Below are positions 26,651-63,999 of a stretch of 64,000 nucleotides of DNA, in pieces. This DNA comes from a virus, in IMG/VR virus record IMGVR_UViG_3300037470_000856, positions 32,001-96,000 of that record, one strand, 5' to 3'. The notes under the pieces are model-generated. The model saw nothing but the letters and a program-made list of their open reading frames with translations. It ran no database searches and had not been told where the DNA came from. The stretch's first letter is position 1. Each line of letters starts with the position of its first letter. The position numbers were made by a program, and so were the translations under genes.

Positions 26651-27045
26651 GCGCTACCCGTCCTCTCCTTGCGGGCATAGGACTCGTATCCGCTCGTGTC
26701 ATTGCCCTTGGACCGGGCGAGTTTGGCCGCGTCGCTCCAGGTCTCGGTGCGCTCGCCACCCACGTTGGGCTGGAGCGACGGGATCGTCCCGTCCCCCTTC
26801 TGCTCCCGCTTCTTGTCGGCCAGGCGTTCATTCTTGCGGCGCATCTGGCCGGCGACGCGGTTATTCTTCGTGGCCCACCCGTCGCCCGAGAAGTTGATCA
26901 TCGGCGGCGTGAAGATGCGCACCGACCTCTCCTCCACGCCGCACTCGGGGCACGGCGGCTTCATGGAAGTGCCATACTCGGACATCTTCATCACGAGCTC
27001 GAATTGGTGCTCGCAGCTCTGGCACTCGTAGGGGTACGTCGGCAT
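26647..27045 (-). CDS. FmdB-type zinc-ribbon protein
   Basis: MPTYPYECQSCEH...CPECG...FSGDGW. Confidence 0.75.
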   Translation of the reverse strand: MPTYPYECQSCEHQFELVMKMSEYGTSMKPPCPECGVEERSVRIFTPPMINFSGDGWATKNNRVAGQMRRKNERLADKKREQKGDGTIPSLQPNVGGERTETWSDAAKLARSKGNDTSGYESYARKERTGSA

Positions 27046-30000
27046 CAGGAGTCCTCCCCGTCAACGTACCGACGGGCCACGCGCCGAACGACGTCTCGCT
27101 CGGCGACCCTCTGCGCCACGCGCGTCACGATGTCCTGTTCGTCGGTCACGACTTCAATAGCTGCAGGGCTATCGACCGAAAACCGAGAACCCAGCTTCTT
27201 GAGGGGGCTCTTCTCGGGGCGCACGAAGAAGTCCTGGGACTTCTCGAGAACCGCGTAGGCGTGCTTGCAGACGGGTCTCCAGCGAGCCGGGTCCCTGATC
27301 TTGGGGTAGGTGGCGGTCCCGGGGGCCTCCCCTTTCTGGTAGTCGGACTTTGTGGCCCAGTGGGCGGGGCCCCACCACCGCCAGTAGGGGCACGAACATG
27401 AAACTCGGAGATTGAGCTTCGGAACATTCGAGGTGTTCCCCCGCTTGAAAGCCTGGACACGGACGACGTGGTTTCCCACGTCCCAGTGCCAGATCCAGTT
27501 CTTCGTGTCGGTGCGCGCGAGCTTGGGCGTGTACTGCCGCGACCGCTCCTTGATCTTCTTGTCGCAGCGCCTGAGGATCTCGCGGACCGTCGTCGCCACG
27601 CGTCGAAGGCCTTCCTCTGGACCGAACGCGGAGCGCACCCCGTGCCCGAAGTGCGCGTCGAGGATCTCGCGGACGAGAGCCCGCGTCGCCTGCTTGACCT
27701 CGAAATTGTTGTTATGGAGGTAGCGATCCTGCCGCCCGTCCGAAACCTGCTGCGTGTTGTTGGCGAGGTCCGTGTAGTACGACATCGGAAGAACTTTCCC
27801 CGAGCCGTCCGTCGGGTTCATCGTGTTCCGCACCTTGTCGTCCGGGTAATCGAGGCCCCCGGGGGCCGGGGGCCGAATCTCCCACTTGAGACCCGTCTGA
27901 GGGTGCCCGTCCAGGTTCGGAGCCTGGAGATCTTCGCCCTTCTGCTTGCCTGGGTCCTTGCGCGGCGTCCCGGTGTCGCGGCTCTGCCCCTTCCCGTAGT
28001 TCTGGTCGAGCTGCTCGGGGGGCTTGGTCTCCTTAACGTGCGTGTTCCAGTTCGAAGGCCAGTTGGCTCCTTCAATCTCGAGACCGAGGAGGTCGAACGC
28101 CTCGGCAAGCGCACCGAACCCCGCGTTTCTGTCTCGCATGCGATCCTTCTGCTGCTCGGGCGTGATGCCCTTGCGACGACGCTCCGCGAGCTGCTCCTCG
28201 CGCCACTCCCTGGTGCGTTCGGCCGGGAGCCGAAACCCGATCCCGCGTCGCTCGTAGCGCTTCGGGTACAGACGGTAGTACTTGTTTTTGAGTTTCTTCC
28301 GCGGCAGCCGTTTGTCGCGGAGGCGATACTTCATCCGCATCTTCCGCTTTTTCTGCGGGTGCTGCCGGTAATCCTGCTTCGACCGGAGTCGCGCGGGGCC
28401 GGCCTGGTTCTTCTGGTGCTCCTTCGGGAAGGGGCCTTGACGCTCGACCGCGACCGGATCGTGCCCCTCCTCGTCGTCGAATGCCGTCGGGCCGTCCACC
28501 CGGCGCGTCGGCATGTTGTAGTCGTACTTGGTCGGGTGCCCGTACTCGTCGCCCTTCTCGTCCAGGGTGCGGTAGGGGATGTGGCGCGGCTTGTTGTAGT
28601 AGGTTGGCCCGATCCGCTTCTCGCGGTTCTTGCTATGGTTCGAGGGCAGCGGGAGAGCCCGCTCCTTCTCTCGAGACTGAGGGAGCTGCACGGGCCACGC
28701 GGAGTCGAGATTCGACTGCCCCCGGTCCGGGCTCGTGTTCTCCGTGTCGGCCGGGGTGATGCCAAGCTGCGACTTCTGGTCGACGACCGTCTTGTAGCCC
28801 GGAGTGTCCTGCCAGCGCGGGCGGTAGGCAAGGATGCCGGCCGCGGCTCGCAGCTCCCGGAGGCCCGCGGTCCTGGAGGCAAACATGAACGGCTTGCCGC
28901 TTTGAGGCTCGCCCTTTCCGTCATCCTTCCCCTTCCCCTTCGGGCCCGACGTCGCGGGGACCTTGGGAGGCGCCTTCTTCTTTCGCTTCGGGAACTTGCG
29001 GTCGTCCTTGAGGCGCATGGCCTTGGACTTCGACATCTTGTCGTCGTCGAACTCGATGAATTTGAGCGTGGTGAGATCACCGTTGTCGGGATGGAGCGCG
29101 TCGACGAACAGACGTCCTCCGGTGCCCACCCGGTCGACACGGCCGACGTACCAGCGGCCGTCGTGCTCGTACCCGAACATATCGCCCTTCTTGAGTCCCT
29201 CGACGCTCGACAGCGCCTCCCCCTCGAAACTCTCGGGCTTCTTCTTGGGGGCCTTCTCCTTGGTGACCCGGGGCTGCCCCTGAGAGGGGAAAAGCTGCTT
29301 CTTGTGCTCCTCCCACTCCTCCTTATCGTGCGCCTCCCACTCCTCCTTGGTCTTGATGACCGCGGGGATCTTCCCCCACCCGGAGATCTCGGCGTTCTTG
29401 TAGGTGGAGTTGCCGTCGCGGACCGTGTACGTGCCGTCGCCGTTGTCGATCAGGCTGATCGGCTTGCGCTTGCCGTACTTCCCCTTCGCCGCCATGGCGA
29501 GCAACTCGTTGCCGTTGAGGACGCCCTTGAGGCGCACCTTGGCCGGCTGGATCTTGCTCATGTCCACGAGCTCGGACTTCTTGTCGTCGCGGAAGTACTT
29601 CTCCGGGTCCTCCTTGAGTTTCGATAACCCTTCGTACAGGGCCTTCTCGTTCTCCTTGGCGGGGTCGGGAGGGGCGTGCTTCACCTTGTGCACGTCCATC
29701 TGACCGAGGTTGTAGTCGCGGAACTCCTCGAAACCGTGCTCCTTGAGTTCGCCGGTCTTGGGATCAATGTCGATCGTGAAGAACTCGTGGCCGCGGGAGT
29801 CGATCACCCGACCGTGGTGGACGGCACCCTTGTGGTGGTACGAGACGACGTCGCCGACCTTGACGTCCTTCGGGTTCTTGAGCGGCTCGCCCGTCTTGCC
29901 CATCTCCTCGACGGCGGCCTTGCGCTTCTTCTCGGCCTCCTCGCGTTCCTTCTTCTCCTTCTCGCGCTTCGCCTTCTCCTCGGGCGAGAGCTCCTTCACC

Positions 30001-30713
30001 TTCGGCTTGCCCGACGAAGGAGCGTCCTCCTCGTCGGGGTCGAAGTTTCCCCACAGGTCCTCGTCGACCAGGAGAGCCTCGCGGTCCTTCACCTTCTTCT
30101 TGTCGAAGGACCACTCCGTCTTGTCCGTGACCTTGCCGGTCCTGGAATCGACCTCCTGAATCCAGAACCTCGAGTCATCCTCCGACACTCGCGTGACGCG
30201 GCCCATCCGGTCGTTGCCTTTGACCCTGTAGGCGACGACGTCGCCCGCGAAGATGTCGTCGAGCGAGAGCTCAGGCCACGTCTTCTTGTTCTTGAACGGG
30301 TCGGAGACCCTCGAGGGCTGAATCGTCCGCACGTCGAACGACTCGACGGCCACCTGCGGGATCGAGAGGGGCGCCTCCTTCATCGGCTTGCCAGTCTTGA
30401 GGTCGAGTCTTTGCGCGACGACGTTGCCGTCGGACGCCGACGTGACGAGAGCGTGGATCGTCAAGTTGGGTGCCTGGATGGAGAGCACGTCGCCCTCGCG
30501 GACGTCCTTGATGTTCTCAACCTTCTTGCCCTCCTTGGGCCCCGGCTCTACGAGGGACTGATACTGCTTCCACTGCTCGTAGATGCGGTGCTGCTCATCC
30601 ATCGGCAGCGACGTGTAGAGCACCAGGTTGCCGGTTTCGGGGTGCTTGAACTTGCGCCCCTCGACGGCCTTGCCGAACTCCGACAGAGCTGTCCTGATGC
30701 CGAAGTCGGGCAT
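27045..30713 (-). CDS. Large modular protein: KHPETGN module, SH3/KOW-like repeats, ParB/Srx-like domain, C-terminal SWIM zinc finger
   Basis: RKPISLIDNGDGTYTVRDGNST (ParB-like), VSCSCPYW...VCKH (SWIM), repeated GD.v.y...grV units. Confidence 0.6.
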   Translation of the reverse strand: MPDFGIRTALSEFGKAVEGRKFKHPETGNLVLYTSLPMDEQHRIYEQWKQYQSLVEPGPKEGKKVENIKDVREGDVLSIQAPNLTIHALVTSASDGNVVAQRLDLKTGKPMKEAPLSIPQVAVESFDVRTIQPSRVSDPFKNKKTWPELSLDDIFAGDVVAYRVKGNDRMGRVTRVSEDDSRFWIQEVDSRTGKVTDKTEWSFDKKKVKDREALLVDEDLWGNFDPDEEDAPSSGKPKVKELSPEEKAKREKEKKEREEAEKKRKAAVEEMGKTGEPLKNPKDVKVGDVVSYHHKGAVHHGRVIDSRGHEFFTIDIDPKTGELKEHGFEEFRDYNLGQMDVHKVKHAPPDPAKENEKALYEGLSKLKEDPEKYFRDDKKSELVDMSKIQPAKVRLKGVLNGNELLAMAAKGKYGKRKPISLIDNGDGTYTVRDGNSTYKNAEISGWGKIPAVIKTKEEWEAHDKEEWEEHKKQLFPSQGQPRVTKEKAPKKKPESFEGEALSSVEGLKKGDMFGYEHDGRWYVGRVDRVGTGGRLFVDALHPDNGDLTTLKFIEFDDDKMSKSKAMRLKDDRKFPKRKKKAPPKVPATSGPKGKGKDDGKGEPQSGKPFMFASRTAGLRELRAAAGILAYRPRWQDTPGYKTVVDQKSQLGITPADTENTSPDRGQSNLDSAWPVQLPQSREKERALPLPSNHSKNREKRIGPTYYNKPRHIPYRTLDEKGDEYGHPTKYDYNMPTRRVDGPTAFDDEEGHDPVAVERQGPFPKEHQKNQAGPARLRSKQDYRQHPQKKRKMRMKYRLRDKRLPRKKLKNKYYRLYPKRYERRGIGFRLPAERTREWREEQLAERRRKGITPEQQKDRMRDRNAGFGALAEAFDLLGLEIEGANWPSNWNTHVKETKPPEQLDQNYGKGQSRDTGTPRKDPGKQKGEDLQAPNLDGHPQTGLKWEIRPPAPGGLDYPDDKVRNTMNPTDGSGKVLPMSYYTDLANNTQQVSDGRQDRYLHNNNFEVKQATRALVREILDAHFGHGVRSAFGPEEGLRRVATTVREILRRCDKKIKERSRQYTPKLARTDTKNWIWHWDVGNHVVRVQAFKRGNTSNVPKLNLRVSCSCPYWRWWGPAHWATKSDYQKGEAPGTATYPKIRDPARWRPVCKHAYAVLEKSQDFFVRPEKSPLKKLGSRFSVDSPAAIEVVTDEQDIVTRVAQRVAERDVVRRVARRYVDGEDS

Positions 30714-30716
30714 CGG

Positions 30717-31133: not shown

Positions 31134-31176
31134 GGACCGCCTTCACAGGAGGGTGGTCCATCGACGGAAAACCGAA

Positions 31177-32796: not shown

Positions 32797-32859
32797 GAGC
32801 CTCGTCCCGGTTCGTGAAAACCAGTGTGAGACACCCTACCGGTCTACGGAGGCCCGGGT

Positions 32860-33511: not shown

Positions 33512-33515
33512 GTGC

Positions 33516-35554: not shown

Positions 35555-38500
35555 TCATCTGGCCGCGTCGAGCAGCGCCTTGCGAAGTTGGGGTCTGGCA
35601 AGCGCGAGGCGCAGCACCCGGGCCGCGGTCTTCTTGGCCTGGATCTTCTCCGCGTACCTCTCGCGCTGCTTCTTGAGGCTCTCTCGACGAGCCAGCAGCG
35701 TCTTGTAGAGCTTGTCCTTCTCGGCGCCCTTCGGGCCCCACTGGTCCACGAGCTTCTTGATCTTGCTCTCGGGGATCTCGAGCACGCGGTCGATGCTGTC
35801 CACGATCTGCTGCGGGGTCGCGTGGTGGAAGACGCTCCCGGACTTGCGGTCGGGATCGGTGAAGGTGTCGAGCTCCGTGACCTCGTCTCCGAACGCGTCG
35901 CCCTTCGGCGCTCCCATCGCGCGGTAGCGGAGGGCGCCCCCGGTGTCCACGCGACGGCCTCGTCCCTCCTCGTCCACGAGCAGGTTGTCGTAGTCGAGAC
36001 CGACCACGTCCCAGTTGCCGAGCCACGCGTCCACGGCGATGCCCTCGAGGACTCCGGGCACGTTGCCCTTGCGGAGGGCGCTCGAGTTCTGCTTGAGCCC
36101 CGGGATGATCTTGCTCGCCACGCTGAACTGGCCGTCGCGCGTGGCCGGAGAGAGATCGGGGACGCCGATGCCGGCGAGCTCGTACAGCTTGCCGGCGAGG
36201 ATCTCGTTGCGGGCACGGTCCTCGGACTTCGGCGTCTTCACGTAGTAGCGGTCGCCGTTCTCGGCCTGGTACAGGCCCCCCGGGTTGCTGCCCGTCTGCG
36301 GCCCCACCTGCTTGAACTCGTCCGAGTCGATGTCGAGCACCTCCTGGGACTTCGGAGCCTCGGTCTTCGCGCCGCCTCCAGTCTCGTCGACCTTGGCCTG
36401 GGTCTTGAGGTCCGAGAGGGCCTTCTGCACCGCCTCCACAAGCTCGGGCTGATCCTCGTACACCTCCCACGCCACTTCCTGGATGTCCGCAACGTCGGAG
36501 CCCGAGAGAGGGGCCCCTTTCTGGACCTTGTCGAGAAGCTCGTGCCAGCCGGACTGCGCCTCCTCGTCCCCCTTGTTCATGTCGAGTTTCACGTCGAGCA
36601 CGTCCACGAGGGTGGACTGCGGGGACTTGGGTTTCGGCTTGGGAGGCACGACCTTGAACCCCTTCCCCCAGTTCCACTCGGCACCCGCGGTGTCCTTGAT
36701 GACCCACTTGCCATCGTCTTCGTCTTGGTACACGTCCGCGACCTCGATCTCGTGTCCCTCGAGGTCGGGGTCCGGCACGACGAGGGTGACGCCGGGCTTC
36801 ACCTTCGGGGGAGGCGGACGATGCCAGTCGTCGGCGCGCTCGACCTTGCGTTCCTTCATCTTCTCCGCGTCGAACGACACGGGCTTGAAGCGGACCTGCT
36901 TGCCCGTCTTGGGGTTGTAGACGAGCGCCTTGAAGTCGTCCTCGTCGGCCGAGACGACCTCCCCGATCATCTCCTTGCCCTTGAACGTGTAGCGAATCTT
37001 GTCGCCGATCTTGAGGTCGGATGGCTTGGTGAGATCAGCCGGCTTCTCAGGCTTCTTCGCCTTCGACTCCGTCTCGTCGGGACCCTTGCTCACGGAGCCG
37101 GGGGCCTCCTGCTGGGCCGTCTCCTGCTGGTACTCGGCGTAGACCTTGGCGGCGAACGCCTTGTCCTTCATGGCCGTCGAGGCCGCGACCTCTGGATACT
37201 TGTCCTTGGTCTTCGGGTTTGGGTTTGGGACCTTCTTCTTGCCGCCCTCGTAGCGCTTGCCGAACCACTCGTCGAAGTCGGCGCCTCCCGACGGCTGCTT
37301 CGGGCTCTCCTGCTGAGCTGGAGACGTGGAGGGGGCGTCGAAGATCGAGACCGCCACGCGCTCGGAGGGCGAGTCGAAGATGGTCGTGGCGCGCTTCGGG
37401 ATCTTCCTGATCTGGGCGAACAGTTCGCGCCGGAACCCAACGTTGACGGAGGCGAAACGCAGGATGCGGACGGCCGCGACGCGGGGCGCCTGCTCCTCGA
37501 TGAGCCAATCCTGTGCGTGGCAGTGCTGTGGCCACCATGTGTCCTTGACCGGCGAGCGCAGCCAGTCATCATCCTCGGGCTCGAACTCGATGACGAGTAC
37601 GTCGTCGTCGAAGACCTCGCCGAACAGCGGGCGCCGCTCGTACGAGGCGAGTTTCATCTTCTCCGAGCTGAAGTCGGACATGGAGTGGGGCATGACCTTG
37701 CCCTCCATGCCGTCCTGGCCGGCCACGACGTACTCATTCTCCGAGTACGGCGGCTTGGCCGAGGAGAGGCTCGCGTAGGTCACCGGAGAGACGAACAGGC
37801 GTGAGACGGGCACCTTGTACCTGACGACGCGCTTTTCTGCGCCCGCGAAGTTGTAGGCCACCTGCGGGTCGATCGAGAAGGACGCGAGTTCCCGCGCCGT
37901 GGTCGTCGTGATCTTCTTGCCCTGCGCGGCACCCTGGACCGGCTTGGTCTTGGTGCCGCGGTAGAGGGTGACGTGGTCGACGCCGAGTGCGTCGTAGACG
38001 AGCTGACTGTACGCCATGGCCTTGGAGATGGCGCGGTGCAGGGCCTCGTTCTTGCGCCCCTCCTCGCGATGGTGCTGGACGTTGGCCGCCTCGAAGTACT
38101 TGGGGCCGCCCTCGACACCGAGGTTCTCAAGGCCACCCATGAGTTTGTGGGCCGTTGTTGCACCGCTCGATCCCTGCCAGGAGGAGAGGGCGCCCTGCCA
38201 CGCCTCCCACTCGTCGTCGGTGAGGAGTTTCTTGAACTCGTCCGCGGCGATGTGCCCGGACTGCGCGAGTTTACGTTCGCCCTCGGTCATGTCGTTCCAC
38301 TGGGTCGCGTTCCCGTGCCAGTAACTCTTGCCCGACGACATGTCTTTCACAATGTCCTTGACCTTGTCGCCGATCAGCTCCTTATACTGCTCGAAGAAAC
38401 GGTCAGCGTCACGAGCGATGGAACTGCCGTGGGCCCACGACGAGGGCGGCGAGAGATGCTGGAGCGCGCCCGTGTGGGTCTCCTCCTTGCCCGCCATCGC

Positions 38501-54245: not shown

Positions 54246-57200
54246 CTAGAACCGGGTCTGCTTTCGCAGCGAAAGGATTCGCCCAAGACGCACCAAGGTC
54301 TTGGCTTCTCCCGTTTGTGGTTTGCGACCGAGCACCTCGGCACAGCGCGCGAGGTACTTATCGAGGGACGGATGCCCGTCGGTAGACCCGACCCGGAGAG
54401 CGGTCCTGTAGAGATCCCTCGAAACTTGGAAGTCGTGGGTCTGCTTGAGCCGGGCGATCCCGTCGATCAACTCCACGTCGGACCGGGCGATGCAAAGCAG
54501 CGCCTCGGTCCCGGCGGCCAGCTTGGCCATGGCCGCCTGGTGGTTGATGTTCTCGTTGGTGGAGGTCTCGAGTTCGGCGGGCGAGGGCTCGTCCTTGTCG
54601 CCCTCGTCGCCCTGCATCTTGTCGCGGAGCTTCTTCTTGATCTTGTCGAGGACGTACTTCTCGACCGCGTCCTCGAGATCCTTCATCGGGTCCGCGTCCT
54701 CGCCCCCGCCCGGGTCGCCTGGCATCCCGGGCATGCCGCCTCCGGCGTCGTCTCCGGCGTCGTCTCCGGGAGGAGCGGTGAGCTGCGCGAGGCGAGCGTG
54801 CGCGAGGCGGGCCTGGCGACGCTCCTCGGCGAGCTCGGCCGCGGTCTTGGATCCCTCGAAGCTGACGGTCATGTCGCGCGCGGCCTTGGCCATCTCGTCC
54901 TCGCTGGCCGTCCACTGGCGCGGGGGCTCCGAGAGGAGGCGCTGCATCTGGCTGCGTGTGTCGAGGTTGATACTGTCGGGCTGCAGGATGTTGCGCATCA
55001 CGGCGCCCTGGAACGCCGGGACGTCGACCCAGGATGCCTCGATGAAGGTAACGCCACCCGTGGGGTCGAGCGTCTCGTGGCCGCACAACTCGGCGACCCG
55101 AAATTTGTTGCCAAGCTGGTCGTACTCGTACTGGCCCTTGCCATACTTGACGTGCTCGCAGTTGTGAACGGCAAGGCCCTCGACCACATATGAATGATCG
55201 CCCTCGACCCCGAAGTTGTGGACCGGACCAGAGTAGGGCTCGCAGGAGACGCCCCGAACGCGGTAAATGAGCCAGTTACCGACGCGCTTGAACCCATCGG
55301 TCACGGCCGACATCGTGACACGGGCTGTCTCCCGGTCAGAGAACCTGACCTCATCACCGAACCCTTGAGGATCGGAGACCACAAGACCGAACGAGGGGAG
55401 CCACCCACGGTGGTCGCGTACGGTAACGGAACCGTCACCGTTCACCACTTGGTCGAGGGTCGCGCTGCGACCTCCAAAGGTGACCTTCTTGTACGAGTAC
55501 AAGCCGCACCGCGCGGCTAAGATGTGCATCTGGTTCAACAGGTTGAGTGATGTAGTGGAGCCAACGATACCGACGTCCGCCTGCGTTGCATCACCGCCGA
55601 GCCACCCGAACAGGACGTGCTTCTGCACCTCAGGACTCCATCGGAGAATTGAGGGATCAAGACGTTTTTCGTGCGAATACTCGCCGCAGTACCGGAAAAA
55701 GAACTCGGCGACCTGGGCATCCATGAAACGGACATCCACGGACCCGCTGTCCTCTGTGCTGCCGGAATTCCGGTTCCGATGCACCCGGACCGACCTGTCT
55801 GCGCTCCCCACCCACTGCCGGTTGCAAACCTTGCACTGGTAACAGTCATCGGCCCCTTTCTTGAACCGGACGTTGTACGCGTACTCCGAGGGAGCCCGGC
55901 ACCCCGGGCACATGACGTCAGAGGAGACCGACCGGCTCGTGCTACGTCGATGGACCGGAGTCACGCTGTCGCGGGCGACCAAGGTGCGCCAGTTTTCCGA
56001 CGAAACCCGTCGCTCGTCGCGGCCGAACTCCTCGTTCAGGAGCTTCTCCACCTCAGCCGCGAGAGTGTCATGCTCGTGGTGGCCGAATGTGAAACTGACC
56101 CCGACCCTCTCACTGTCCCGCTTGATGAAGGATCCCTCGGCCAGGAAATAGCCAATAAGCCGCGCCCTGTTGACGGTAGCGTCGTCTGTGTTCTCCGTCT
56201 CCTGCGGGATGGGGAAAGCGAGATAGTCCCCAGCCCTGAGGTCTCTAGCCGCGACGAATTCCAAGTCCACGTCGAACAGGCGTTTATAATCCCCCATCTC
56301 CACGACGTTCACGGCATAGGGATTCGGGTTTTGCAGCCGCGTGTTGTGGCCTGGGAGGAACCGGCGCCGGAACGCCTTCACCGAACCGCGCTCGTGCTCC
56401 ACCGTACGCCGAAGCGGAGCTCCACAGCCGCACGCGCAGATCTGTGCGGGTCGGAGCGTCCAGTACGGATGGTTGGGGGTGGAGCGCAATCCAACTGGGA
56501 CCCCGTCGACGTCGAGCGAGATGAGATGCCCCTCGTACGGACGGCGCATTGTCTCTGTGACGGCGCCCGTCAAACCTGTGTGGGTAACGACGGCATCTCC
56601 CTCGACAATCTCCTCGATCGGCACGTACCGTCCGTCCGCCAGGAGCACACGGGTGCCGGGAGGGAAACACATCTCGGTCTCGTCCGCAGCCACGTTCCCG
56701 CACTTCGTGCAGATCGTCTCCGTGACGCTGCAGCCCATGCTCATCGTGCCCATGCGGCCCGACTCGATGTCGCGGATCAGGCTCGCGTGGCGACGGCTCG
56801 TGGCGATGAGGATGTCGACGTAGACCGAGTCGCCGATGTCGCGGGCGGCGGCGTCGATGATGCGGCCCTTGGACTGGTCCTCGATCTGGACGTGCTCCAC
56901 GAAGTTGTGGGCGCCGACGAAGGTGCGGTAGCTCTTGAGCAGCACCGGGCGGTCCCACGCGTCGTGGTTGTTGTTGATGTAGATGTCGCACTTCGGGAGG
57001 ATGTGGTAGTTCGCCCACCGCCGATTCACCCGACGTCCCATCTCGCTGACGTTGCCGAGTTTGACGTTCGACACCTCGGAGGTGTCCACCGACGCCACGA
57101 TGGTCGCGTGCGTCAGGAGATACTTCTCCGGGGAGAACTGGTCCTGGAGGATCTCCGACGCCTGCGCCACGAGGTTCGGCGAGCTCGAGGCGGTGCGGAC

Positions 57201-57293
57201 GCGGCCCCTGGCACGCTGCACGAAGTTCCCCCAGTAGTCGATCGACCACGAGGGCTGTGTCACGTCCGCGCGGGCGTACTTGAGGAAGGCCAT
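54246..57293 (-). CDS. Putative prohead protease containing an intein
   Basis: NNNHDAW, FVEH, GRIIDA, SMGC...CTKCGN and ASWV..PAF motifs; position upstream of scaffold and capsid genes. Confidence 0.7.
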   Translation of the reverse strand: MAFLKYARADVTQPSWSIDYWGNFVQRARGRVRTASSSPNLVAQASEILQDQFSPEKYLLTHATIVASVDTSEVSNVKLGNVSEMGRRVNRRWANYHILPKCDIYINNNHDAWDRPVLLKSYRTFVGAHNFVEHVQIEDQSKGRIIDAAARDIGDSVYVDILIATSRRHASLIRDIESGRMGTMSMGCSVTETICTKCGNVAADETEMCFPPGTRVLLADGRYVPIEEIVEGDAVVTHTGLTGAVTETMRRPYEGHLISLDVDGVPVGLRSTPNHPYWTLRPAQICACGCGAPLRRTVEHERGSVKAFRRRFLPGHNTRLQNPNPYAVNVVEMGDYKRLFDVDLEFVAARDLRAGDYLAFPIPQETENTDDATVNRARLIGYFLAEGSFIKRDSERVGVSFTFGHHEHDTLAAEVEKLLNEEFGRDERRVSSENWRTLVARDSVTPVHRRSTSRSVSSDVMCPGCRAPSEYAYNVRFKKGADDCYQCKVCNRQWVGSADRSVRVHRNRNSGSTEDSGSVDVRFMDAQVAEFFFRYCGEYSHEKRLDPSILRWSPEVQKHVLFGWLGGDATQADVGIVGSTTSLNLLNQMHILAARCGLYSYKKVTFGGRSATLDQVVNGDGSVTVRDHRGWLPSFGLVVSDPQGFGDEVRFSDRETARVTMSAVTDGFKRVGNWLIYRVRGVSCEPYSGPVHNFGVEGDHSYVVEGLAVHNCEHVKYGKGQYEYDQLGNKFRVAELCGHETLDPTGGVTFIEASWVDVPAFQGAVMRNILQPDSINLDTRSQMQRLLSEPPRQWTASEDEMAKAARDMTVSFEGSKTAAELAEERRQARLAHARLAQLTAPPGDDAGDDAGGGMPGMPGDPGGGEDADPMKDLEDAVEKYVLDKIKKKLRDKMQGDEGDKDEPSPAELETSTNENINHQAAMAKLAAGTEALLCIARSDVELIDGIARLKQTHDFQVSRDLYRTALRVGSTDGHPSLDKYLARCAEVLGRKPQTGEAKTLVRLGRILSLRKQTRF
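55161..56669 (-). mobile_element. Intein (503 aa) with LAGLIDADG homing endonuclease
   Basis: Starts CFPPGTRV (Cys209); block B TPNHPY; LIGYFLAEG and GWLGGD; ends HNFGVEGDHSYVVEGLAVHN followed by Cys. Confidence 0.92.
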
Positions 57294-57294
57294 C

Positions 57295-57945: not shown

Positions 57946-57950
57946 AGTCC

Positions 57951-58898: not shown

Positions 58899-58919
58899 TC
58901 GTGCTTCCCAGGGGGGCTA

Positions 58920-59781: not shown

Positions 59782-62700
59782 TCAGGCCACGTCGAGCACG
59801 ACGACGGGGCGAAGCGGGTCGTCCGGGTGGAACGACCGGACGTGCGCGAGCCAATCGCCAGCCATACGTCCGTGGCGACCGCGCTCAAGCCACACCTGGG
59901 CAACGCGCTCAACCGCGAAGCGGGTCGGGCCGCGCTCCTCGAAGTCGCCGAACTCGGCGGAGAATTCCTCGCCGGGAGCCTCGCCCCCGCGCGCCGGCTT
60001 CTTCTCGTCCTCGTCGCCACCCTTGTCGGCGTAGCGCTCGGCCTCGTCGCGCTTCTTGAAACTCTTGGGGACGCCGTCCTCGTTCTTGGCGCGCCAGTTC
60101 CCCTGCTCGGTCCCCCAGACGTCGCCGGGGCCGTGCTCCTCGTCGTCCTTGACCTCCTCAGAGTCCGCACTCTCGGGAGTTTCACGATCGGAGGTCTCTG
60201 CCTTCTCATGCTCCTCCCTGGAGCGTGGCTCCTTGGCCTTCTCGTCGGGGTGCGGCAGCGTCTCCTGCTCGAGCACCTCACGCTCGCCGGTCTGCACGAA
60301 GTGGTTGAGCACCGCGGAGGCAGGCGAAATCACCACCTTGTCGAACTTGTCGCGGATCGTGTTGAGGATGGCCTTCGCCTTCTCGCGCAGTCCGGTTCCC
60401 TTCTTGGGATCGAACGTGCCCTCGACCATCTCGAGGTCCTCAGCCGAGGGCTGCTCGCCGTTCCTCTGCGCCTCCGCGATCCGCTCCTGCGCCTCGAGCA
60501 CCTTCTCCATGCGGGGCTTCATCCGGGAGGTCGCCTCGCCGAGCACCTCGGCGCGCGCCTCGGGGTCGTCGGCGTCGGCGATGCCGGCCGCCTGCATGGT
60601 GTCGCGCACGGCCCGGTCTCCCCACTGGTCGTTGAGGATGTCTTGGACCAGGAAGTCCTTCATCATCGCTCGCAGGACGTCGGGCGTGCCGTCGTTCTTC
60701 ATGAGGTCGACGAGGTCCGCGTAGCCATGCTCCTCGTCGCCGCCCGTGGTGAGATCGCCGAGCTGCTCAAAATTCATGTCGTCGAGCCCCTCCTGCATCT
60801 TGCGGCGCGCCTGCTCGGCGAAGTAGTCCTCGGTCGTCCTGAACAGCTCGGACCCCTTCCCGTCCACGACCATCTGCTTGACCAGCGCGGCCATGCCCTT
60901 GCTCGGCTGCGGACGACCTGGGAGCGACTCGCCAGTCACGGCGACCTGCGCGATGTTCATGCCGGTCAAAATCGCGTTGAGCTCCTGCGCCCGGTTGGTC
61001 TCGGGATCGAGACCCTTGAGGGCCCGCGCGACCTGATCGGCCGCGCGCCTGCGCAGGGACGACGGGAGGCGCTCGAACTGCTTGAACGCCGCCTGCGCCC
61101 GCTCCGAGTACTTCTCGGAGTCCATCTCGGTGACGCCGACCGGCGTCCCTCCGATGTTCATCGGGTTGCCCACGATGCGCTCGGCGTAGCTGAGTTGTGC
61201 GAGGCGCTCCGCGAGCTCTTTCGGGTCGGTGAGGCCGTGCAGATCTCCGAACTTGGCGGCTCTCGACGCGACGTCGACGGCCTCCTCGGAGCTTGGGTCC
61301 ATCTGCTTGAGATTCTTGAGCGTGTCCTGGAAATCGATCGAGAAGCTCTCGACCTGCGCCTCGTCGAGGTCGTTGAGGGCGCCGCCGATCTGCGTGGCGA
61401 GGTCGGGGGGAAGCCGCGTTTCCTTGCCGAGCATCTCCTCCATGTTGGTCTGCGCGCGCTCGACGGCGCGCTCGACCTTCTTGGCCCGCTCCTGGCGCAG
61501 CTTCTCCTCGCGCTTCTCCTTGGCGAAGCCCGGGTCCTTGCGCTCGCGCCTGAGCTCGTCGACGCGCGCCTTGGCGTCCGCGTGCTCCTCCTTCTTGTCG
61601 TCGAGCTCGTCCTGCTTGCGCCCCATCTCGCGCTGCATCTTCTGCATCGAGTCGAGTAGCTGCTGCCTGCCGGGGCCCTCTCCCATGTGAGGCAGGTACT
61701 CGTCGCGCTGCTGATTGATCTTGGACTTGAGGTCCTTGATCTCGTCGGTGAGGTCCCCCATCTGGGCCTCGATGTCGCGCATCTCGTCGCGCGCCTGCTC
61801 GAGCTCGACGTGCACGTCCTCGGTGGTGCGCTCCTTGTCCTCCTCGGTCTTCTTCCCCTTGTCGGTGCCCTCCTCCTCGGGCTGCTGCTGGCCCCGCCAC
61901 TTCTCGCGGATCTTGGTCTGCTCGTCAGGGGGCAGCGAGGTGAAGCCGACGTCGTTCCCGGTCTCGGGGTGCTTGAACTTCTGGTTCTTGACCCACTCCT
62001 CGAAACTCAGGCCGCTCTTGGGCTGCACCGGGGCCTCGGCCATGACGTGGCGCAGGGCCACGCGACGCGCGACCTTGTTCCACTTCATGGACAGGTCGGG
62101 GTCTCCCTTGTCGCCGCCGCCCATGCCGTCGAGGTCAGGGTCTTCCTCGTCCAGAGTCCGGTTGTCGCGGAGGTCGTAGCGCGGAGGCTTCTTCTTGGGC
62201 TCCGTGCGGAGCATCTTCTCGACGGCCTCATCCTCCTTCTCCGCGGGCGACTTCGTGGCCGTCTTCGCCTGCGGAGTCCTGATCATCGCGTCCTGAAAGC
62301 GGAAGTCCTTGTTGCGCCCCTTGTTGGGCCCCTTGTTGGGCACGAAGCCCATGCCGCGGTACCACTTCTCGAGGTGCTTCTTCGACGAGCCGAACTCGGA
62401 GGTCGGGGTGAACGTCACGGTCACGCCGTTGCTGTCAACCCAGTCGAGCGTCTCCTCCATTGCTCTCGAGGCGCTGCCCGACCCGCGCCTGTCCTCGTTC
62501 ACCCGGATCAGGTCCACGGACATGTGGCGGTGCTGCGGACGGTAGGCGGCGTGGGAATCTGTGAGGCTGTGCCTCTCGATCATAGACTTGCGCAGAGCGT
62601 CCCACTCCTCGCGGCTCGGGGGCTCGCGCTCGGGCGCGTCCTCGTCGTCGACGCCCATGACCCTGGCCTCCCACTCTTCGCGGGACAGAGCGGGACCTCC

Positions 62701-63999
62701 CTCTCGGCGCTTGCGCTGCACGTAGGCGTCGTAGGTCGGAGCGGCGAGCCTCGCGTTCGGGCGCGGCCGGTACTGCTCCTCGGGCGAATTGTCGACGTGC
62801 CGGCACATGTCGCAGCGTGTCCCGCACCGCCAGTACTCCTCGGAGTCAAAGGGGTAGCCGTCGTCGAGACCGTAGTGGTCGAGCAGCACGTTGAGGCAGC
62901 GCTCGCAGCTCTTCGCGGCGACCATGATGGCGTCGCCGACGTCCCACTGTCCGCTGCGCACCATGGTGTTGACGAGGTCGGTCGGGTACGACGACTCGCC
63001 CGCGCCTACGTCGGTGCTCGTGCCATCCTCGTTCAGACGTAGGATGCTGTGGTGCAAGACGTGGGGGAACTGGCTGTGCATGTACTCGGCGCCCTCGGGG
63101 GGCTGCCACGTCTCGTACTCGCCGAGGTCGCCGCCGCCGAGGCGGTTGCCATGGGCGTCCTCGTACCAGAGGATCGTGAAAATCTGGGGGTCGAACTCAA
63201 GCCCCTCGACGTGAGGGCGCGGACGCTCGTGCTCTCGGGCGATCCGGTAGACGGCCGGCGCGTTGCGGAGCCACCACCGACGGTCTCGGGACACGAGGAC
63301 CGGGGCAACCCCGGCGTGCGCCAAAATGAGGCGCTCGGTGTCGGTGCCGAGGAGCGCCGCCGTGCGCATGATTTTGGGGTCCGACGCCTTCCTCGTGTGG
63401 CTCTCGTTGACGGTGCCGTCCTTCATGTAGCCGTCCTCCAAACCCGGCACGAGGTACTGGCTGCGAAGGGTCGAAGGATCGTGCCCCACGGCCTCCGCCG
63501 TCGCTTCGAGGGCCTTCTTGAACTCGTCCTTGAGTTTCTTCTCGCGCTCCTTTCTGTCCTCGGGGAGTTTGCCCTTACGGACCTTGCGGAGTTGCGCCTT
63601 CATCTCGCGGTTGGCGTGGAACCCACGGAGGTCCTTCGCGGTGATGTCAAGCGGCTCGAGGTACTCGTTGACCTCCTGCGCCGAGACGCTCAGGACGCAG
63701 TCGTTGGGCTTCTTGCCCTTGCACGCCTCCTTGAGCGCCGAGACAACTCGCGGGTTACTGATCTTCTTCTTCTGCTCGACGCCCGACTTGCCGACGTAGG
63801 AGACCGTGACGGAGCCCCGGCCGAGGGTGATGTGCTTGACGCGCCAGGTTGTGACGCCGAAATGGCCCTCCTTGGCGCTGTCGTCGTTCCCGACGCGCTC
63901 AAACGTCTCGTCCATGAGGCCCACGGCCAACGCGAGATCGCGGGTCTTTTCGTCCTTCGACTTCACGTCCTTGCGGACCTTGGTCTGGAGTTTCTTCAT
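59782..63999 (-). CDS. Large modular protein: DNA topoisomerase IB catalytic domain + GNAT-like domain + coiled coil (5' end outside window)
   Basis: TopIB residues in ERVGN, YVGK, AKDLRGFHAN and VGH...RSQYL (~63400-63999); GNAT-like RRGSGSAS...LEKWYRGMGF (~62280-62530). Confidence 0.8.
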   Translation of the reverse strand: MKKLQTKVRKDVKSKDEKTRDLALAVGLMDETFERVGNDDSAKEGHFGVTTWRVKHITLGRGSVTVSYVGKSGVEQKKKISNPRVVSALKEACKGKKPNDCVLSVSAQEVNEYLEPLDITAKDLRGFHANREMKAQLRKVRKGKLPEDRKEREKKLKDEFKKALEATAEAVGHDPSTLRSQYLVPGLEDGYMKDGTVNESHTRKASDPKIMRTAALLGTDTERLILAHAGVAPVLVSRDRRWWLRNAPAVYRIAREHERPRPHVEGLEFDPQIFTILWYEDAHGNRLGGGDLGEYETWQPPEGAEYMHSQFPHVLHHSILRLNEDGTSTDVGAGESSYPTDLVNTMVRSGQWDVGDAIMVAAKSCERCLNVLLDHYGLDDGYPFDSEEYWRCGTRCDMCRHVDNSPEEQYRPRPNARLAAPTYDAYVQRKRREGGPALSREEWEARVMGVDDEDAPEREPPSREEWDALRKSMIERHSLTDSHAAYRPQHRHMSVDLIRVNEDRRGSGSASRAMEETLDWVDSNGVTVTFTPTSEFGSSKKHLEKWYRGMGFVPNKGPNKGRNKDFRFQDAMIRTPQAKTATKSPAEKEDEAVEKMLRTEPKKKPPRYDLRDNRTLDEEDPDLDGMGGGDKGDPDLSMKWNKVARRVALRHVMAEAPVQPKSGLSFEEWVKNQKFKHPETGNDVGFTSLPPDEQTKIREKWRGQQQPEEEGTDKGKKTEEDKERTTEDVHVELEQARDEMRDIEAQMGDLTDEIKDLKSKINQQRDEYLPHMGEGPGRQQLLDSMQKMQREMGRKQDELDDKKEEHADAKARVDELRRERKDPGFAKEKREEKLRQERAKKVERAVERAQTNMEEMLGKETRLPPDLATQIGGALNDLDEAQVESFSIDFQDTLKNLKQMDPSSEEAVDVASRAAKFGDLHGLTDPKELAERLAQLSYAERIVGNPMNIGGTPVGVTEMDSEKYSERAQAAFKQFERLPSSLRRRAADQVARALKGLDPETNRAQELNAILTGMNIAQVAVTGESLPGRPQPSKGMAALVKQMVVDGKGSELFRTTEDYFAEQARRKMQEGLDDMNFEQLGDLTTGGDEEHGYADLVDLMKNDGTPDVLRAMMKDFLVQDILNDQWGDRAVRDTMQAAGIADADDPEARAEVLGEATSRMKPRMEKVLEAQERIAEAQRNGEQPSAEDLEMVEGTFDPKKGTGLREKAKAILNTIRDKFDKVVISPASAVLNHFVQTGEREVLEQETLPHPDEKAKEPRSREEHEKAETSDRETPESADSEEVKDDEEHGPGDVWGTEQGNWRAKNEDGVPKSFKKRDEAERYADKGGDEDEKKPARGGEAPGEEFSAEFGDFEERGPTRFAVERVAQVWLERGRHGRMAGDWLAHVRSFHPDDPLRPVVVLDVA

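What the first reader, a model, noticed from the sequence alone, without database searches (positions are those of the whole stretch)
27045..63999. Candidate capsid-packaged modular effector system: large proteins with different enzymes and shared address-like modules
Seen: four large proteins encoded among head and neck genes carry unrelated enzyme domains: TopIB+GNAT (59782-63999), RelA/SpoT-like (41236-42678), ART+kinase (35555-41239) and ParB-like+SWIM (27045-30713). They share short modules in mix-and-match fashion. (a) KFKHPETGNLVLYTSLPMDEQHRIYEQW (1222 aa) vs KFKHPETGNDVGFTSLPPDEQTKIREKW (1405 aa). (b) YEDYVQRKKDENGTPLPREQWEAYVFG (480 aa) vs YDAYVQRKRREGGPALSREEWEARVMG (1405 aa). (c) YEGGKKKV.NPNP.TKD.YPEV...TA.KD..FAAKV twice in the 1894-aa protein. 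(d) (S/T)IFD(S/A)P in the 1894- and 480-aa proteins. Established: T4 packages and injects the ADP-ribosyltransferase Alt, and MuF-type toxins and polyvalent proteins show head-linked enzyme cassettes. Inference: this is a MuF-independent cargo system in which small shuffled modules load a variable enzyme toolkit into the head for injection.
Basis: partly seen in the sequence, partly recalled or inferred. Interest (0 to 1): 0.88.

Follow-up and report, generated by a model that had tools for sequence, protein, structure and literature searches.

The report
Leader modules on huge-phage effector polyproteins
An uncultured giant phage strings together host-manipulating enzymes in very large proteins, each unit marked by short interchangeable "leader" modules that recur on hundreds of unrelated phage proteins; these leaders may be a loading or processing signal for proteins injected with the DNA, but that is not shown.

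Summary
The window is part of a 141-kb fragment of a huge phage. Its capsid protein is at least 89% identical in 558 viral contigs. Modules a, b, c and d are real, conserved in orthologues, and far beyond chance. Module a is a large family known only from metagenomes: 368 cluster representatives, 1-6 copies per protein, no Pfam family, no PDB fold match. It is fused to TopIB, GNAT, SAM-lyase-like, kinase, 2H, exonuclease and pentapeptide domains.

Modules a, b and c are unrelated in sequence but replace one another at the same position of orthologous proteins. I also found a further tag, a helical hairpin (LRxxLIRLAHxxPELRxxLLPLL). It often precedes module a through a [KR]-x-A junction.

The enzyme calls are supported to different degrees. 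TopIB is strong. RelA/SpoT is supported at fold level. ART, GNAT, ParB, SWIM and kinase are weak but consistent.

The best filing is phage polyvalent proteins (Iyer 2017) with a new leader system. Packaging into the head remains inferred. In complete relatives the tagged genes are scattered over the genome, not confined to head genes, and no cultured relative carries the tags. The scan's earlier notes on this subject all concern this same genome.

The parts
27045..30713 (-). p1222 (1222 aa). N-terminal accretion (module a, SH3-like repeats, ParB-like domain) fused to a conserved C-terminal half with a SWIM finger.
   Evidence: ORF. 63% identical orthologue in L007, with conserved synteny in L007, L008 and L010. 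Only aa 629-1157 is conserved in LR745208.1. aa 1014-1158 matches Tunturi_5 gp336, annotated 'tail protein'.
30516..30695 (-). Module a, the copy in p1222 (aa 7-66). It directly follows the residues RTA at aa 7-9.
   Evidence: HMM E 6e-28. The family has 368 representatives.
29274..29576 (-). ParB/Srx-like segment of p1222 (aa 380-480).
   Evidence: Pfam ParB_N E 0.0097, 16.4 bits, below the 26.3 cut-off. Weak.
27048..27716 (-). C-terminal domain of p1222 (aa 1000-1222) with a CxC...CxH SWIM finger and a terminal RVAxR-type tag.
   Evidence: Pfam SWIM E 7.5e-4, 19.4 bits against a 19.6 cut-off. The orthologous 879-aa protein in L111 has SWIM followed by a C-terminal PELR helix.
35555..41239 (-). 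p1894 (1894 aa). Two concatenated units: unit 1 (aa 1-1282) ends in an ART-like domain, and unit 2 (aa 1283-1894) ends in a HipA/PI3-4-kinase-like domain.
   Evidence: ORF. Orthologues at 56-64% identity in L020, L021 and L022. Junction anatomy.
40865..41047 (-). Module c, copy 1 (p1894 aa 65-125).
   Evidence: HMM E 1.4e-36.
37106..37288 (-). Module c, copy 2 (p1894 aa 1318-1378).
   Evidence: HMM E 7.2e-35.
37325..37477 (-). Internal junction of p1894 (aa 1255-1305): a PELR-like helix, then K-R-A, then TIFDSP and SIFDAP.
   Evidence: The same arrangement occurs in the orthologues L020 and L021.
41141..41167 (-). N-terminal motif d of p1894 (SIFDSP, aa 25-33).
38540..40822 (-). Array of SH3/Tudor-like ~50-aa repeats in p1894, also present in p1222.
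   Evidence: Repeated BLAST matches between p1222 and p1894, E down to 2e-9. Motif GDxV..G.V...P.TG read. The fold was not tested.
37520..38242 (-). ART-like domain of p1894 (aa 1000-1240).
   Evidence: Pfam DRAT E 3e-4, below cut-off. 30% identical over 263 aa to a cassette inserted in the L012 TopIB polyprotein.
35558..36352 (-). Kinase-like domain plus C-terminal KTA-ARVLRLALARPQLR tag (p1894 aa 1630-1894).
   Evidence: 41-45% identity, E 1e-34 to 1e-43, to a domain inside large phage proteins annotated as ADP-ribosyltransferase. HipA_2 E 0.14. 21 of 30 atlas hits are HipA_2. Tag.
41236..42678 (-). p480. Order: PELR-like helix, module b, RelA/SpoT-like nucleotidyltransferase, SIFDAP, small C-terminal domain, PELR-like helix.
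   Evidence: Orthologues lie directly upstream of the p1894 orthologues.
42559..42642 (-). N-terminal helix tag of p480 (aa 13-40).
   Evidence: HMM E 6.7e-17. Conserved in L020 and L021.
41248..41331 (-). C-terminal helix tag of p480 (aa 450-477), a repeat of the N-terminal one.
   Evidence: HMM E 1.3e-15.
42454..42561 (-). Module b in p480 (aa 40-75).
41629..42291 (-). RelA/SpoT-like (small alarmone synthetase / toxSAS-like) domain of p480.
   Evidence: AlphaFold core pLDDT 65-80. All top Foldseek hits are RelP, RelQ, Tas1 or CapRel. Atlas score 0.95. PDB profile hit SaSAS at E 0.3.
41605..41622 (-). Motif d in p480 (SIFDAP, aa 353-358).
59782..64000 (-). C-terminal 1405 aa of the TopIB polyprotein (full frame 2260 aa, real protein about 2010 aa; it continues beyond the window).
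   Evidence: Orthologues of 3133 aa (L012) and 2184 aa (L035) gain or lose whole cassettes.
63469..64000 (-). Type IB topoisomerase catalytic core (the part inside the window).
   Evidence: Pfam PF01028 E 1.9e-27 on the full protein and 1.6e-24 on the window part.
62635..62751 (-). Module b copy in the TopIB polyprotein.
62245..62637 (-). GNAT-like domain.
   Evidence: Pfam Acetyltransf_CG E 0.0016 and Acetyltransf_1 E 0.0034, both below cut-off. Also seen in the orthologue L012.
61843..62022 (-). Module a, second copy in the TopIB polyprotein. It is preceded by the helix KVARRVALRHV (62035-62076).
   Evidence: In the L023 homologue module c occupies this position.
59875..61797 (-). Long alpha-helical, charged C-terminal region ending in an RVAQVWL tag.
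   Evidence: Weak match to PHROG tape-measure family phrog_167 (E 1.1e-4) and a match to phrog_10691 (E 1.9e-15). Tag.
51023..51895 (-). Major capsid protein (context).
   Evidence: phrog_2522 E 2.4e-49. 89% identity to LR745208.1, 48% to Tunturi_5, 38% to phage G.
52758..54218 (-). Acidic, low-complexity 486-aa protein in the scaffold position. It carries GGKQA followed by an amphipathic helix.
   Evidence: Position and sequence. No family hit. The scaffold role is inferred.
54246..57293 (-). Prohead protease interrupted by an intein with a LAGLIDADG domain (context).
   Evidence: phrog_18299 and Hint/LAGLIDADG matches. Homologues are phage G gp19 and Tunturi_5 gp331.

Best explanation
These are phage polyvalent proteins: very large polypeptides of a huge myophage that concatenate host-directed or anti-defence enzymes. 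The enzymes are TopIB, an Ntn-hydrolase, GNAT, ART, a HipA-like kinase, a RelA/SpoT-like nucleotidyltransferase and a ParB-like domain.

They are built from repeated 'units'. Each unit has a short terminal amphipathic helix or helical hairpin (PELR type or RVAxxW type). This is usually followed by a [KR]-x-A junction, then one of three unrelated but interchangeable ~45-60-aa modules (a, b or c), a charged linker, optional SH3-like spacers, and the enzyme.

My reading is that helix plus module is a common leader. It would direct each unit to one shared destination, most likely the assembling prohead, much as the T4 capsid-targeting sequence does. The [KR]-x-A junctions would be where the polyproteins are cut into single enzymes. 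The enzymes would then leave with the DNA at infection.

Shown: the modules, their spread, their interchangeability, their predicted fold, and the enzyme folds.
Inferred: the destination, the cleavage and the injection.
For: 1. Disparate enzymes sit in single polypeptides. The same domain set (ART, kinase, GNAT, RelA/SpoT, ParB, 2H) is listed for phage-type polyvalent proteins, which are predicted to be packaged (PMC5512222).

2. Module a is a true mobile module. It has 368 representatives at E<=1e-3 and 200 at <=1e-10, with 1-6 copies per protein. Of 199 copies, 112 start within the first 60 residues and 86 are at internal borders. Partner domains are diverse.

3. The modules are interchangeable:
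- The TopIB polyprotein of L023 carries module c exactly where ours carries a.
- DUF3293/SAM-lyase-like proteins carry a (L011) or c (L024).
- One cargo domain has PELR plus a in P0077 and module b in L036.
- Yet a, b and c are not homologous (hhalign probability below 1%).

4. Whole cassettes of [module a + domain] are gained or lost between orthologues (L012 against L035).

5. The PELR hairpin lies at residue 8-12 in most of the 25 of the top 150 module-a proteins that carry it; a few copies are internal or C-terminal, sometimes after GKTAS. Variants sit at both ends of p480 and at the end of each p1894 unit.

6. The leader is predicted with confidence (pLDDT 80-95) as a helical hairpin, a beta-hairpin and a helix. 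It has no known fold.

7. The TopIB and CCA/2H polyproteins lie between the portal and the prohead protease. Other tagged genes lie next to TerL, protease or baseplate genes.

8. The tagged N-terminal part of p1222 is fused to a conserved domain whose Tunturi_5 homologue is annotated as a tail protein.

9. [KR][TQ]A sites coincide with homology-defined domain borders in p1222, the TopIB protein and p1368. They also occur in the scaffold-position protein and a head-module protein.
Against: There are no virion proteomics, and no cultured relative carries the tags: phage G and Tunturi_5 have none, and INPHARED gave no hit.

In near-complete relatives the tagged genes are dispersed. Most of the 10-11 PELR genes lie more than 30 kb from the capsid gene, and module-a genes of the 619-kb phage lie at 208, 306-316, 416 and 519-525 kb. 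Gene position therefore gives little general support.

The [KR][TQ]A motif is only weakly enriched overall, 54 observed against 41.7 expected. Its conservation upstream of module a is moderate: K/R 41% and A 40%.

Some small proteins consist of tags alone, such as P0030 (PELR, module a, PELR), so the tags may have a function of their own. Module a is basic and could bind nucleic acid.

p480 and p1894 follow non-structural genes.
Confidence: 0.45

Rival explanations
1. The modules are substrate- or target-directing adaptors rather than an address. Modules a, b and c, and perhaps the SH3-like repeats, would bind DNA, RNA or one host machine. This would bring each enzyme to its substrate, whether or not the protein is packaged. 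Motif d could be a short docking motif for such a partner, for example a sliding clamp.
For: Module a has conserved basic residues (G-K/R-K/R-F-K/R-x-P) beside a beta-hairpin. Many partner domains act on nucleic acids: TopIB, exonuclease, 2H, CCA-adding enzyme, ParB-like. Up to six copies occur in one protein, as is common for binding repeats. Some proteins consist of tags alone. Motif d sits in Pro/Glu/Lys-rich linkers, as short linear motifs do. Its likeness to clamp-binding peptides is my own recollection and is untested.
Against: No known nucleic-acid-binding fold was found. Three unrelated modules substitute for one another at the same site, which fits a shared destination better than a shared chemical ligand. 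Partners also include enzymes that modify proteins or small molecules: GNAT, kinase, ART, SAM-lyase-like. The strong bias to the extreme N-terminus together with a helix tag is typical of sorting signals.
Confidence: 0.25
2. The tags are mainly processing cassettes. The helices and [KR]-x-A junctions would be recognition and cleavage sites for a phage protease, either the prohead protease or the Ntn-type domain inside the TopIB protein. Cleavage would release single enzymes from the polyproteins. Modules a, b and c would simply be the stable N-terminal caps of the released products.
For: Junctions coincide with domain borders. GKTAS or KxA precedes internal PELR helices and module a. An AAT/Ntn-hydrolase-like domain begins right after a KTA site. 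Polyvalent proteins are thought to need processing (PMC5512222).
Against: Most tagged proteins are small single-cargo proteins with nothing to release. Motif enrichment is weak. No cleavage data exist. This reading is compatible with the main explanation rather than an alternative to it.
Confidence: 0.15
3. The proteins are not virion cargo. They would be intracellular phage enzymes, with TopIB and the CCA-adding/2H enzyme serving phage DNA and tRNA metabolism. The shared tags would assemble them on a common cytoplasmic hub or compartment made by the phage.
For: Tagged genes are dispersed through the genomes of relatives. The order CCA-nucleotidyltransferase then TopIB is conserved even in a 33%-GC phage, as expected for housekeeping functions. 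These phages carry many tRNA-related genes (PMC11924767).
Against: ART, HipA-like kinase, toxSAS-like and DNA-mimic-type (pentapeptide) partners are typical host-directed weapons. The TopIB gene sits between the portal and the protease. Tagged regions are fused to a virion-type domain. No hub or compartment gene has been identified.
Confidence: 0.15

Closest known systems
Polyvalent proteins of phages and conjugative elements (Iyer, Burroughs, Anand, de Souza, Aravind 2017; PMC5512222)
   Same: One polypeptide carries 2-15 domains of disparate activity. The domain vocabulary matches: ART, kinase, GNAT, RelA/SpoT, ParB-like, 2H. They are encoded by phages with a portal-terminase system, are predicted to be packaged and injected, and show rapid shuffling between orthologues.
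   Different: None of the hub domains of that network was found: no MuF, no zincin MPTase, no ArdC, no SNF2. TopIB is a core domain here. Units are delimited by leader modules (a, b, c, PELR and RVAxxW helices) that have no Pfam or LPD family. The only LPD signal is a weak LPD1 hit on one PELR protein.
T4 capsid-targeting sequence and internal proteins (IPI-III, Alt). T4 head review PMC3012670 was listed; the details are my own knowledge.
   Same: A short N-terminal peptide shared by unrelated head-internal proteins, removed by the prohead protease. The genes are scattered in the genome, and the cargo includes an ART.
   Different: The T4 signal is about 10 residues and is cleaved after Glu. 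Here the candidate leader is 25-70 residues with a predicted fold, occurs at both termini and internally, has a candidate junction [KR]-x-A, and has no sequence similarity to the T4 signal.
Phage P1 Dar anti-restriction system (DarA, DarB, Hdf, Ulx and others). Own knowledge; the P1 virion paper PMC9024508 was listed but not read.
   Same: Very large enzymes are packaged in the head by N-terminal determinants and injected to protect the DNA.
   Different: P1 uses an ordered set of helper proteins. No homologues were seen here, although relatives of this clade do carry proteins annotated as DarB-like.
MuF-fused toxins and cargo (SPP1 gp7 / Mu gpF family; own knowledge)
   Same: A gene directly after the portal gene encodes a head protein carrying variable enzymatic or toxin domains.
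   Different: No MuF domain was detected. The modularity here is carried by small leaders, not by a portal-binding MuF domain.
Ejection and inner-body proteins of phiKZ-like and SPN3US giant phages (PMC5694885 and PMC7411985, abstracts seen)
   Same: Dozens of head-internal proteins are processed by the prohead protease and enter the host.
   Different: A different phage lineage, with no sequence relation found. The cleavage motif described there (small residue, any residue, Glu; own knowledge) differs from the candidate here.
Polymorphic toxins and encapsulin cargo-loading peptides (own knowledge)
   Same: The logic of a conserved trafficking or loading element joined to swappable enzymatic payloads. 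Encapsulin shells share the HK97 fold with this capsid.
   Different: These are cellular systems with unrelated sequences. No binding of the leader to the capsid protein could be tested.

Membership tests
Polyvalent proteins (Iyer et al. 2017) | Two or more domains of disparate biochemical activity in one polypeptide. | tested here: met
   TopIB (E 1.9e-27) with AAT/Ntn and GNAT signals. ART-like plus kinase-like in p1894. 2H plus nucleotidyltransferase in p1368.
Polyvalent proteins (Iyer et al. 2017) | Encoded by a phage with a portal-terminase system, in a virion-gene context. | tested here: met
   The order is TerL, portal, p1368, TopIB polyprotein, protease, capsid protein. p480 and p1894 have a mixed context.
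Polyvalent proteins (Iyer et al. 2017) | Presence of network hub domains (MuF, zincin MPTase, ArdC-N, SNF2, DdrB-type ParB). | tested here: inconclusive
   No Pfam hit to MuF, MPTase, ArdC or SNF2 at E<=0.01. There is only a weak ParB_N signal at E 0.0097. A missed remote homologue cannot be excluded.
Polyvalent proteins (Iyer et al. 2017) | Physical packaging in the virion and transfer with the DNA. | not testable with these tools
   The phage is uncultured. The cultured relatives, phage G and Tunturi_5, lack the tags.
T4-type capsid-targeting-sequence cargo | A shared short terminal peptide on otherwise unrelated proteins. | tested here: met
   The PELR hairpin starts at residue 8-12 in most of the 25 of the top 150 module-a proteins that carry it. 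112 of 199 module-a copies start within the first 60 residues. There are 10-11 PELR genes per related genome.
T4-type capsid-targeting-sequence cargo | Removal of the peptide by the prohead protease at a consensus site. | not testable with these tools
   Only a candidate [KR]-x-A junction is available, and its overall enrichment is weak.
T4-type capsid-targeting-sequence cargo | The peptide is sufficient to load a foreign protein into proheads. | not testable with these tools
   Needs an experiment.
MuF-fused head cargo | A Phage_Mu_F / SPP1 gp7 domain. | tested here: not met
   No Pfam or PHROG match in any of the large proteins.
Type IB topoisomerase | Match to the Topoisom_I catalytic core above Pfam's curated cut-off. 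| tested here: met
   96.6 bits against a 23.7 cut-off.
Type IB topoisomerase | A complete R-K-R-H-Y catalytic set. | not tested
I did not align the protein to a solved TopIB.
RelA/SpoT homologue (small alarmone synthetase / toxSAS) nucleotidyltransferases | The RSH synthetase fold. | tested here: met
   The Foldseek top 20 are all RelP, RelQ, Tas1, CapRel or exported SAS, probability 1.00, TM by target 0.40-0.55 on a model with core pLDDT 65-80.
RelA/SpoT homologue (small alarmone synthetase / toxSAS) nucleotidyltransferases | Sequence match to PF04607 at the curated threshold. | tested here: not met
   No PF04607 hit. There is only a PDB profile hit to SaSAS at E 0.3 over the G-Y-[RK]...E-x-Q-x-H motif.
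ADP-ribosyltransferase (R-S-E type) | Sequence or fold match to an ART family. | tested here: inconclusive
   DRAT E 3e-4, 20.5 bits against a 25 cut-off. The YRG / SFS / ExE pattern was read by eye. No structure was predicted.

The most novel reading that the evidence does not exclude
A globally distributed clade of huge phages with a nearly invariant capsid protein uses a transferable, foldable cargo-loading leader. The leader is the PELR helical hairpin, a [KR]-x-A maturation site, and one of modules a, b or c. It would define a head-packaged proteome of roughly 10-20 effectors per genome. The hairpin would dock on the capsid or scaffold interior in the manner of scaffold helix-turn-helix domains or encapsulin loading peptides. 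Polyproteins such as those in this window would then be tandem fusions of complete cargo units.
Probability: 0.3. Interest if true: 0.85.

Novelty: new variant of a known kind. Interest (0 to 1): 0.62.

Why it matters
If the leaders are loading signals, they would let one read the injected proteome of uncultured huge phages directly from sequence: every protein bearing the tag. That would expose a large catalogue of first-strike anti-defence and host-takeover enzymes. Examples are TopIB, toxSAS-like enzymes, kinases, ARTs, SAM-lyase-like proteins and DNA mimics.

It would also give a portable tag for loading foreign proteins into very large capsids. Even if the destination turns out to be different, a 368-cluster family of leader modules is new vocabulary for how phage multi-enzyme proteins are built and shuffled. 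It has no Pfam entry, no known fold, and three non-homologous but interchangeable forms.

Tried and rejected
- Megablast of the region against INPHARED: no match.
- Direct Pfam, PHROG and PDB sequence searches of the whole large proteins found only TopIB. Cutting the proteins into domain segments gave the weak hits that I report.
- tblastn of a six-copy module-a protein against 50,697 phage records: no match.
- Module-a pattern scan of 185,579 prokaryote species genomes: no confirmed relative. The pattern was strict, so absence from cells is likely but not proven.
- Cluster look-up: ten family members come only from metagenome sources and have no informative names.
- Profile-profile comparison of module a with c and with b: probability below 1%. 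I therefore dropped the idea that they are one diverged family.
- Fold searches of the leader model: Foldseek best E 1.3, and VIA wide best Z 4.0 on generic helical matches. No fold was assigned.
- 'Modules occur only near head genes': rejected after genome-wide searches in five large relatives.
- [KR][TQ]A as a statistically enriched motif: only 54 observed against 41.7 expected. I keep it as a positional observation only.
- The p480 terminal-helix HMM found no further copies in this contig.
- Contexts of P0001 and P0034 from the exact look-up were too short to be informative.
- The phage G multi-omics paper held nothing on head processing. Literal motif strings are absent from the searchable literature.
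No binding test was made.

Full report
**Setting.** The window is bases 32001-96000 of a 141,029-bp IMG/VR record that CheckV rates 31% complete. Nearly all genes are on the minus strand, and GC is about 64%.

The capsid protein (window 51023-51895) matches PHROG 2522. It is 89% identical to the 485-kb uncultured phage LR745208.1. It is 48% identical to the jumbo myophage Tunturi_5 of Acidobacteriota and 38% to phage G.

The same capsid protein, at 89% identity or more, occurs in 558 IMG/VR contigs, some of 250-619 kb. This is therefore a fragment of a huge phage from a widespread clade.

- terminase with an intein, then the portal;
- a 1368-aa protein (module c, Zn ribbon, 2H phosphoesterase, CCA/polyA nucleotidyltransferase with an intein);
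- the TopIB polyprotein and three small genes;
- the prohead protease with an intein, an acidic 486-aa protein, a 219-aa protein and the capsid protein;
- a methyltransferase-LAGLIDADG fusion, RNase HII and other non-structural genes;
- p480, p1894 and several small genes;
- a 539-aa and a 138-aa protein, p1222, and homologues of neck and tail genes;
- a 2480-aa sheath.

**The observation.** All four ORFs exist. The '1405-aa' one is cut by the window edge. The full frame is 2260 aa, of which the first ~240 residues look like read-through of the upstream gene's end.

An all-against-all BLAST and a tblastn against the whole contig confirm the modules:
- Module a: three copies, at p1222 aa 7-66 and TopIB-protein aa ~316-372 and ~1515-1584. 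E values are 3e-12 to 1e-6.
- Module b: p480 against the TopIB protein, E 7e-6.
- Module c: two copies in p1894 and one in the 1368-aa protein, E about 1e-9.

HMMs of a and c find no other copy in the six-frame translation of the contig. Motif d, [ST]IFD[SA]P, occurs four times in the proteome, only in p1894 and p480. It is kept at the same places in orthologues.

**Enzyme domains.**
- TopIB is unambiguous (PF01028, 96.6 bits).
- For p480, a three-sequence AlphaFold model has a core of pLDDT 65-80. Its twenty best Foldseek matches are all RelA/SpoT-family small alarmone synthetases, the T6SS effector Tas1 or CapRel. The language-model atlas (0.95) and a PDB profile hit to a SAS (E 0.3) agree.
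They are DRAT-type ART 3e-4, ParB_N 0.0097, SWIM 7.5e-4, GNAT 0.0016-0.0034 and AAT/Ntn-hydrolase 2.5e-4.
- The C-terminal domain of p1894 is 41-45% identical to a domain inside ~1200-aa proteins of cultured Pseudomonas, Yersinia and Escherichia phages annotated as ADP-ribosyltransferase. The atlas places it with HipA_2 / PI3-PI4 kinases.

This domain set is the one described for phage-type polyvalent proteins (PMC5512222).

**Module a is a large, mobile family.** A 16-sequence profile searched against 1.84 billion representatives found 368 proteins at E<=1e-3 and 200 at E<=1e-10. They range from 68 to 2425 aa and carry one to six copies.
- Of 199 copies in the best 150 proteins, 112 begin within the first 60 residues and 86 are internal.
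- Pfam has no model for it. Partner domains in 123 members include pentapeptide repeats, PI3_PI4_kinase, RNase_T, 2H-SAK, DUF3293/SAM-lyase, GNAT and HEAT.
- In IMG/VR loci it is fused to a SAM-lyase-like domain, GNAT, TopIB, or AAT+TopIB+GNAT, in contigs of 33-67% GC.
- It was not found in 185,579 prokaryote species genomes with a strict pattern, nor in cultured-phage records. Sampled members come from metagenomes only.

**The modules replace one another.**
- A homologous TopIB polyprotein (L023, 2264 aa) carries module c at the exact place where ours carries module a. That place is between a conserved TATK...PPR..DLR linker and the long helical tail.
- DUF3293/SAM-lyase-like proteins carry module a (L011) or module c (L024).
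- One small cargo domain has PELR plus module a in P0077 and module b in L036.
- Profile-profile comparison nevertheless shows no homology between a, b and c.
- Orthologues of the TopIB protein differ by whole cassettes. L035 lacks the first [module a + unknown domain]. L012 (3133 aa) has an extra [module a + ART], and that ART is 30% identical to the one in p1894.
- In LR745208.1 only the TopIB core and the C-terminal half of p1222 are conserved. The tagged parts are therefore recent accretions.

**A further tag and a junction.** Of the 150 best module-a proteins, 25 carry the motif LRxxLIRLAHxxPELRxxLLPLL, in most of them starting at residue 8-12. In some it also occurs internally after GKTAS, or at the C-terminus. 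Variants occur in three places:
- at both ends of p480, conserved in orthologues;
- at the end of p1894 (KTA-ARVLRLALARPQLR);
- at the internal junction of p1894, where helix, K-R-A, TIFDSP/SIFDAP, linker and module c follow each other exactly as at the protein's N-terminus.

p1894 is therefore two complete units in tandem.

Internal module-a copies are preceded by this helix or by an RVAxxW[LI] helix. A [KR]-x-A then precedes the module: K/R is 41% at position -17 and A is 40% at -15 relative to the core Phe.

In the window's proteins, [KR][TQ]A sites fall at borders defined independently by homology:
- p1222 at aa 9, 616 and 1009;
- the TopIB protein at aa 318, 518, 1069 and 1436;
- p1368 at aa 237 and 323.

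Such sites also occur in the acidic scaffold-position protein and a head-module protein. Overall enrichment is weak, however: 54 observed against 41.7 expected.

**Structure of the leader.** With 38 sequences, AlphaFold predicts residues 1-67 of a small member at pLDDT 80-95. The elements are two helices forming a hairpin (the PELR motif), a short helix, a beta-hairpin (KFRNPxTGNxVxF) and a helix (SLPxxEQxxIRxxW). Disorder follows. Neither Foldseek (best E 1.3) nor an exhaustive VIA search (best Z 4.0) finds a related solved fold.

**Context test.** Some tagged genes sit beside virion genes:
- a protein consisting of tags alone lies right after the prohead protease (L013);
- a module-a protein lies right after TerL (L018);
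- one lies beside baseplate genes (L016);
- module a + TopIB lies right after a tRNA nucleotidyltransferase, as in our phage (L019).

Genome-wide searches in five large relatives show a different picture. There are 10-11 PELR genes in three of them, and ten module-a copies in the 619-kb one. They are scattered over the whole genome, mostly more than 30 kb from the capsid gene.

So 'only near head genes' is false. T4's internal-protein genes are likewise scattered (own knowledge), so this does not refute packaging, but it removes the contextual argument. Different genomes favour different tags. Phage G and Tunturi_5 have none.

**Interpretation.** The safest filing is polyvalent proteins of a huge phage. 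They are built not around MuF or a zincin peptidase, neither of which was found, but from units marked by a previously undescribed leader system.

Several features are what one expects of a sorting signal with a processing site: terminal position, a conserved fold, indifference to the cargo, interchangeability of non-homologous forms, and a cleavage-like junction shared with head-module proteins. The position of the TopIB and CCA/2H proteins between portal and protease, and the fusion of tagged parts to a conserved virion-type domain in p1222, point to the prohead as the destination.

I put this at about 0.45. The rivals are target-directing adaptors (0.25), pure processing cassettes (0.15, partly compatible with the main reading) and a cytoplasmic hub (0.15).

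Literal searches of the literature for the motifs found nothing.

**Verdict.** What may be new is the leader system. All earlier notes of this scan on the subject are from this same genome.

Noticed in passing
window 51023-51895 (-) and loci L037-L116: The capsid protein is at least 89% identical in 558 IMG/VR contigs, including records of 250-619 kb. That is unusually strong conservation for a phage capsid protein across genomes whose accessory content differs greatly.
   Followed up: partly
window 54246-57293 (-); L002:15277-18564 (-); L002:7838-11944 (-): Three essential or large genes each carry an intein with a LAGLIDADG domain: the prohead protease, the large terminase and the CCA-type nucleotidyltransferase. 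LR745208.1 has the protease without the insert.
   Followed up: partly
window 59782-64000 and beyond (L002:7830-8564): The first ~240 codons of the 2260-aa frame are Arg/Pro-rich and overlap the 3' end of the 1368-aa gene. The real start is probably near the VARVAMRHLAA helix, since the metagenome gene call is 2010 aa.
   Followed up: partly
L002:6135-7022 (-), just beyond the window: An AAT/peptidase-C45-like Ntn-hydrolase domain begins directly after a KTA site (KTA-MLREAC...). Such enzymes activate by self-cleavage before a Cys, so the polyprotein may cut itself here.
   Followed up: no
window 41141-41167, 37325-37477 and 41605-41622 (-): Motif d ([ST][ILV]F[DE][AS]P, and QYSLFDAP in an orthologue) lies in Pro/Glu/Lys-rich linkers. 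From memory, it resembles sliding-clamp-binding peptides such as QL[SD]LF and the RB69 polymerase tail. The phage encodes a clamp loader (L005:8691-10163).
   Followed up: no
window 42798-43136 (-): By eye, the 112-aa protein just upstream of p480 has a ClpS-like core (YRVIILNDDFTP...). It was not tested with any tool.
   Followed up: no
L013:5899-6279 (P0030): A 127-aa protein made only of PELR helix, module a and PELR helix is encoded directly after the prohead protease of a 42%-GC phage. It is a protein of tags alone, whose role (decoy, plug, adaptor?) is unexplained.
   Followed up: partly
L019:4366-7290: The gene pair tRNA nucleotidyltransferase then TopIB is conserved between this 64%-GC phage and a 33%-GC, 330-kb phage. 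This suggests a functional link between the two enzymes.
   Followed up: partly
window 23395-25788 (-) and 4748-12190 (-): Three tandem paralogues (224, 342 and 221 aa) resemble the repeated insertion domains of the 2480-aa sheath (BLAST E down to 1e-13).
   Followed up: no
G002 (619-kb relative) against G001, G004 and G005: Tag usage is lineage-specific. The 619-kb phage has ten module-a copies and one PELR. The 485-kb phage has eleven PELR and no module a.
   Followed up: partly
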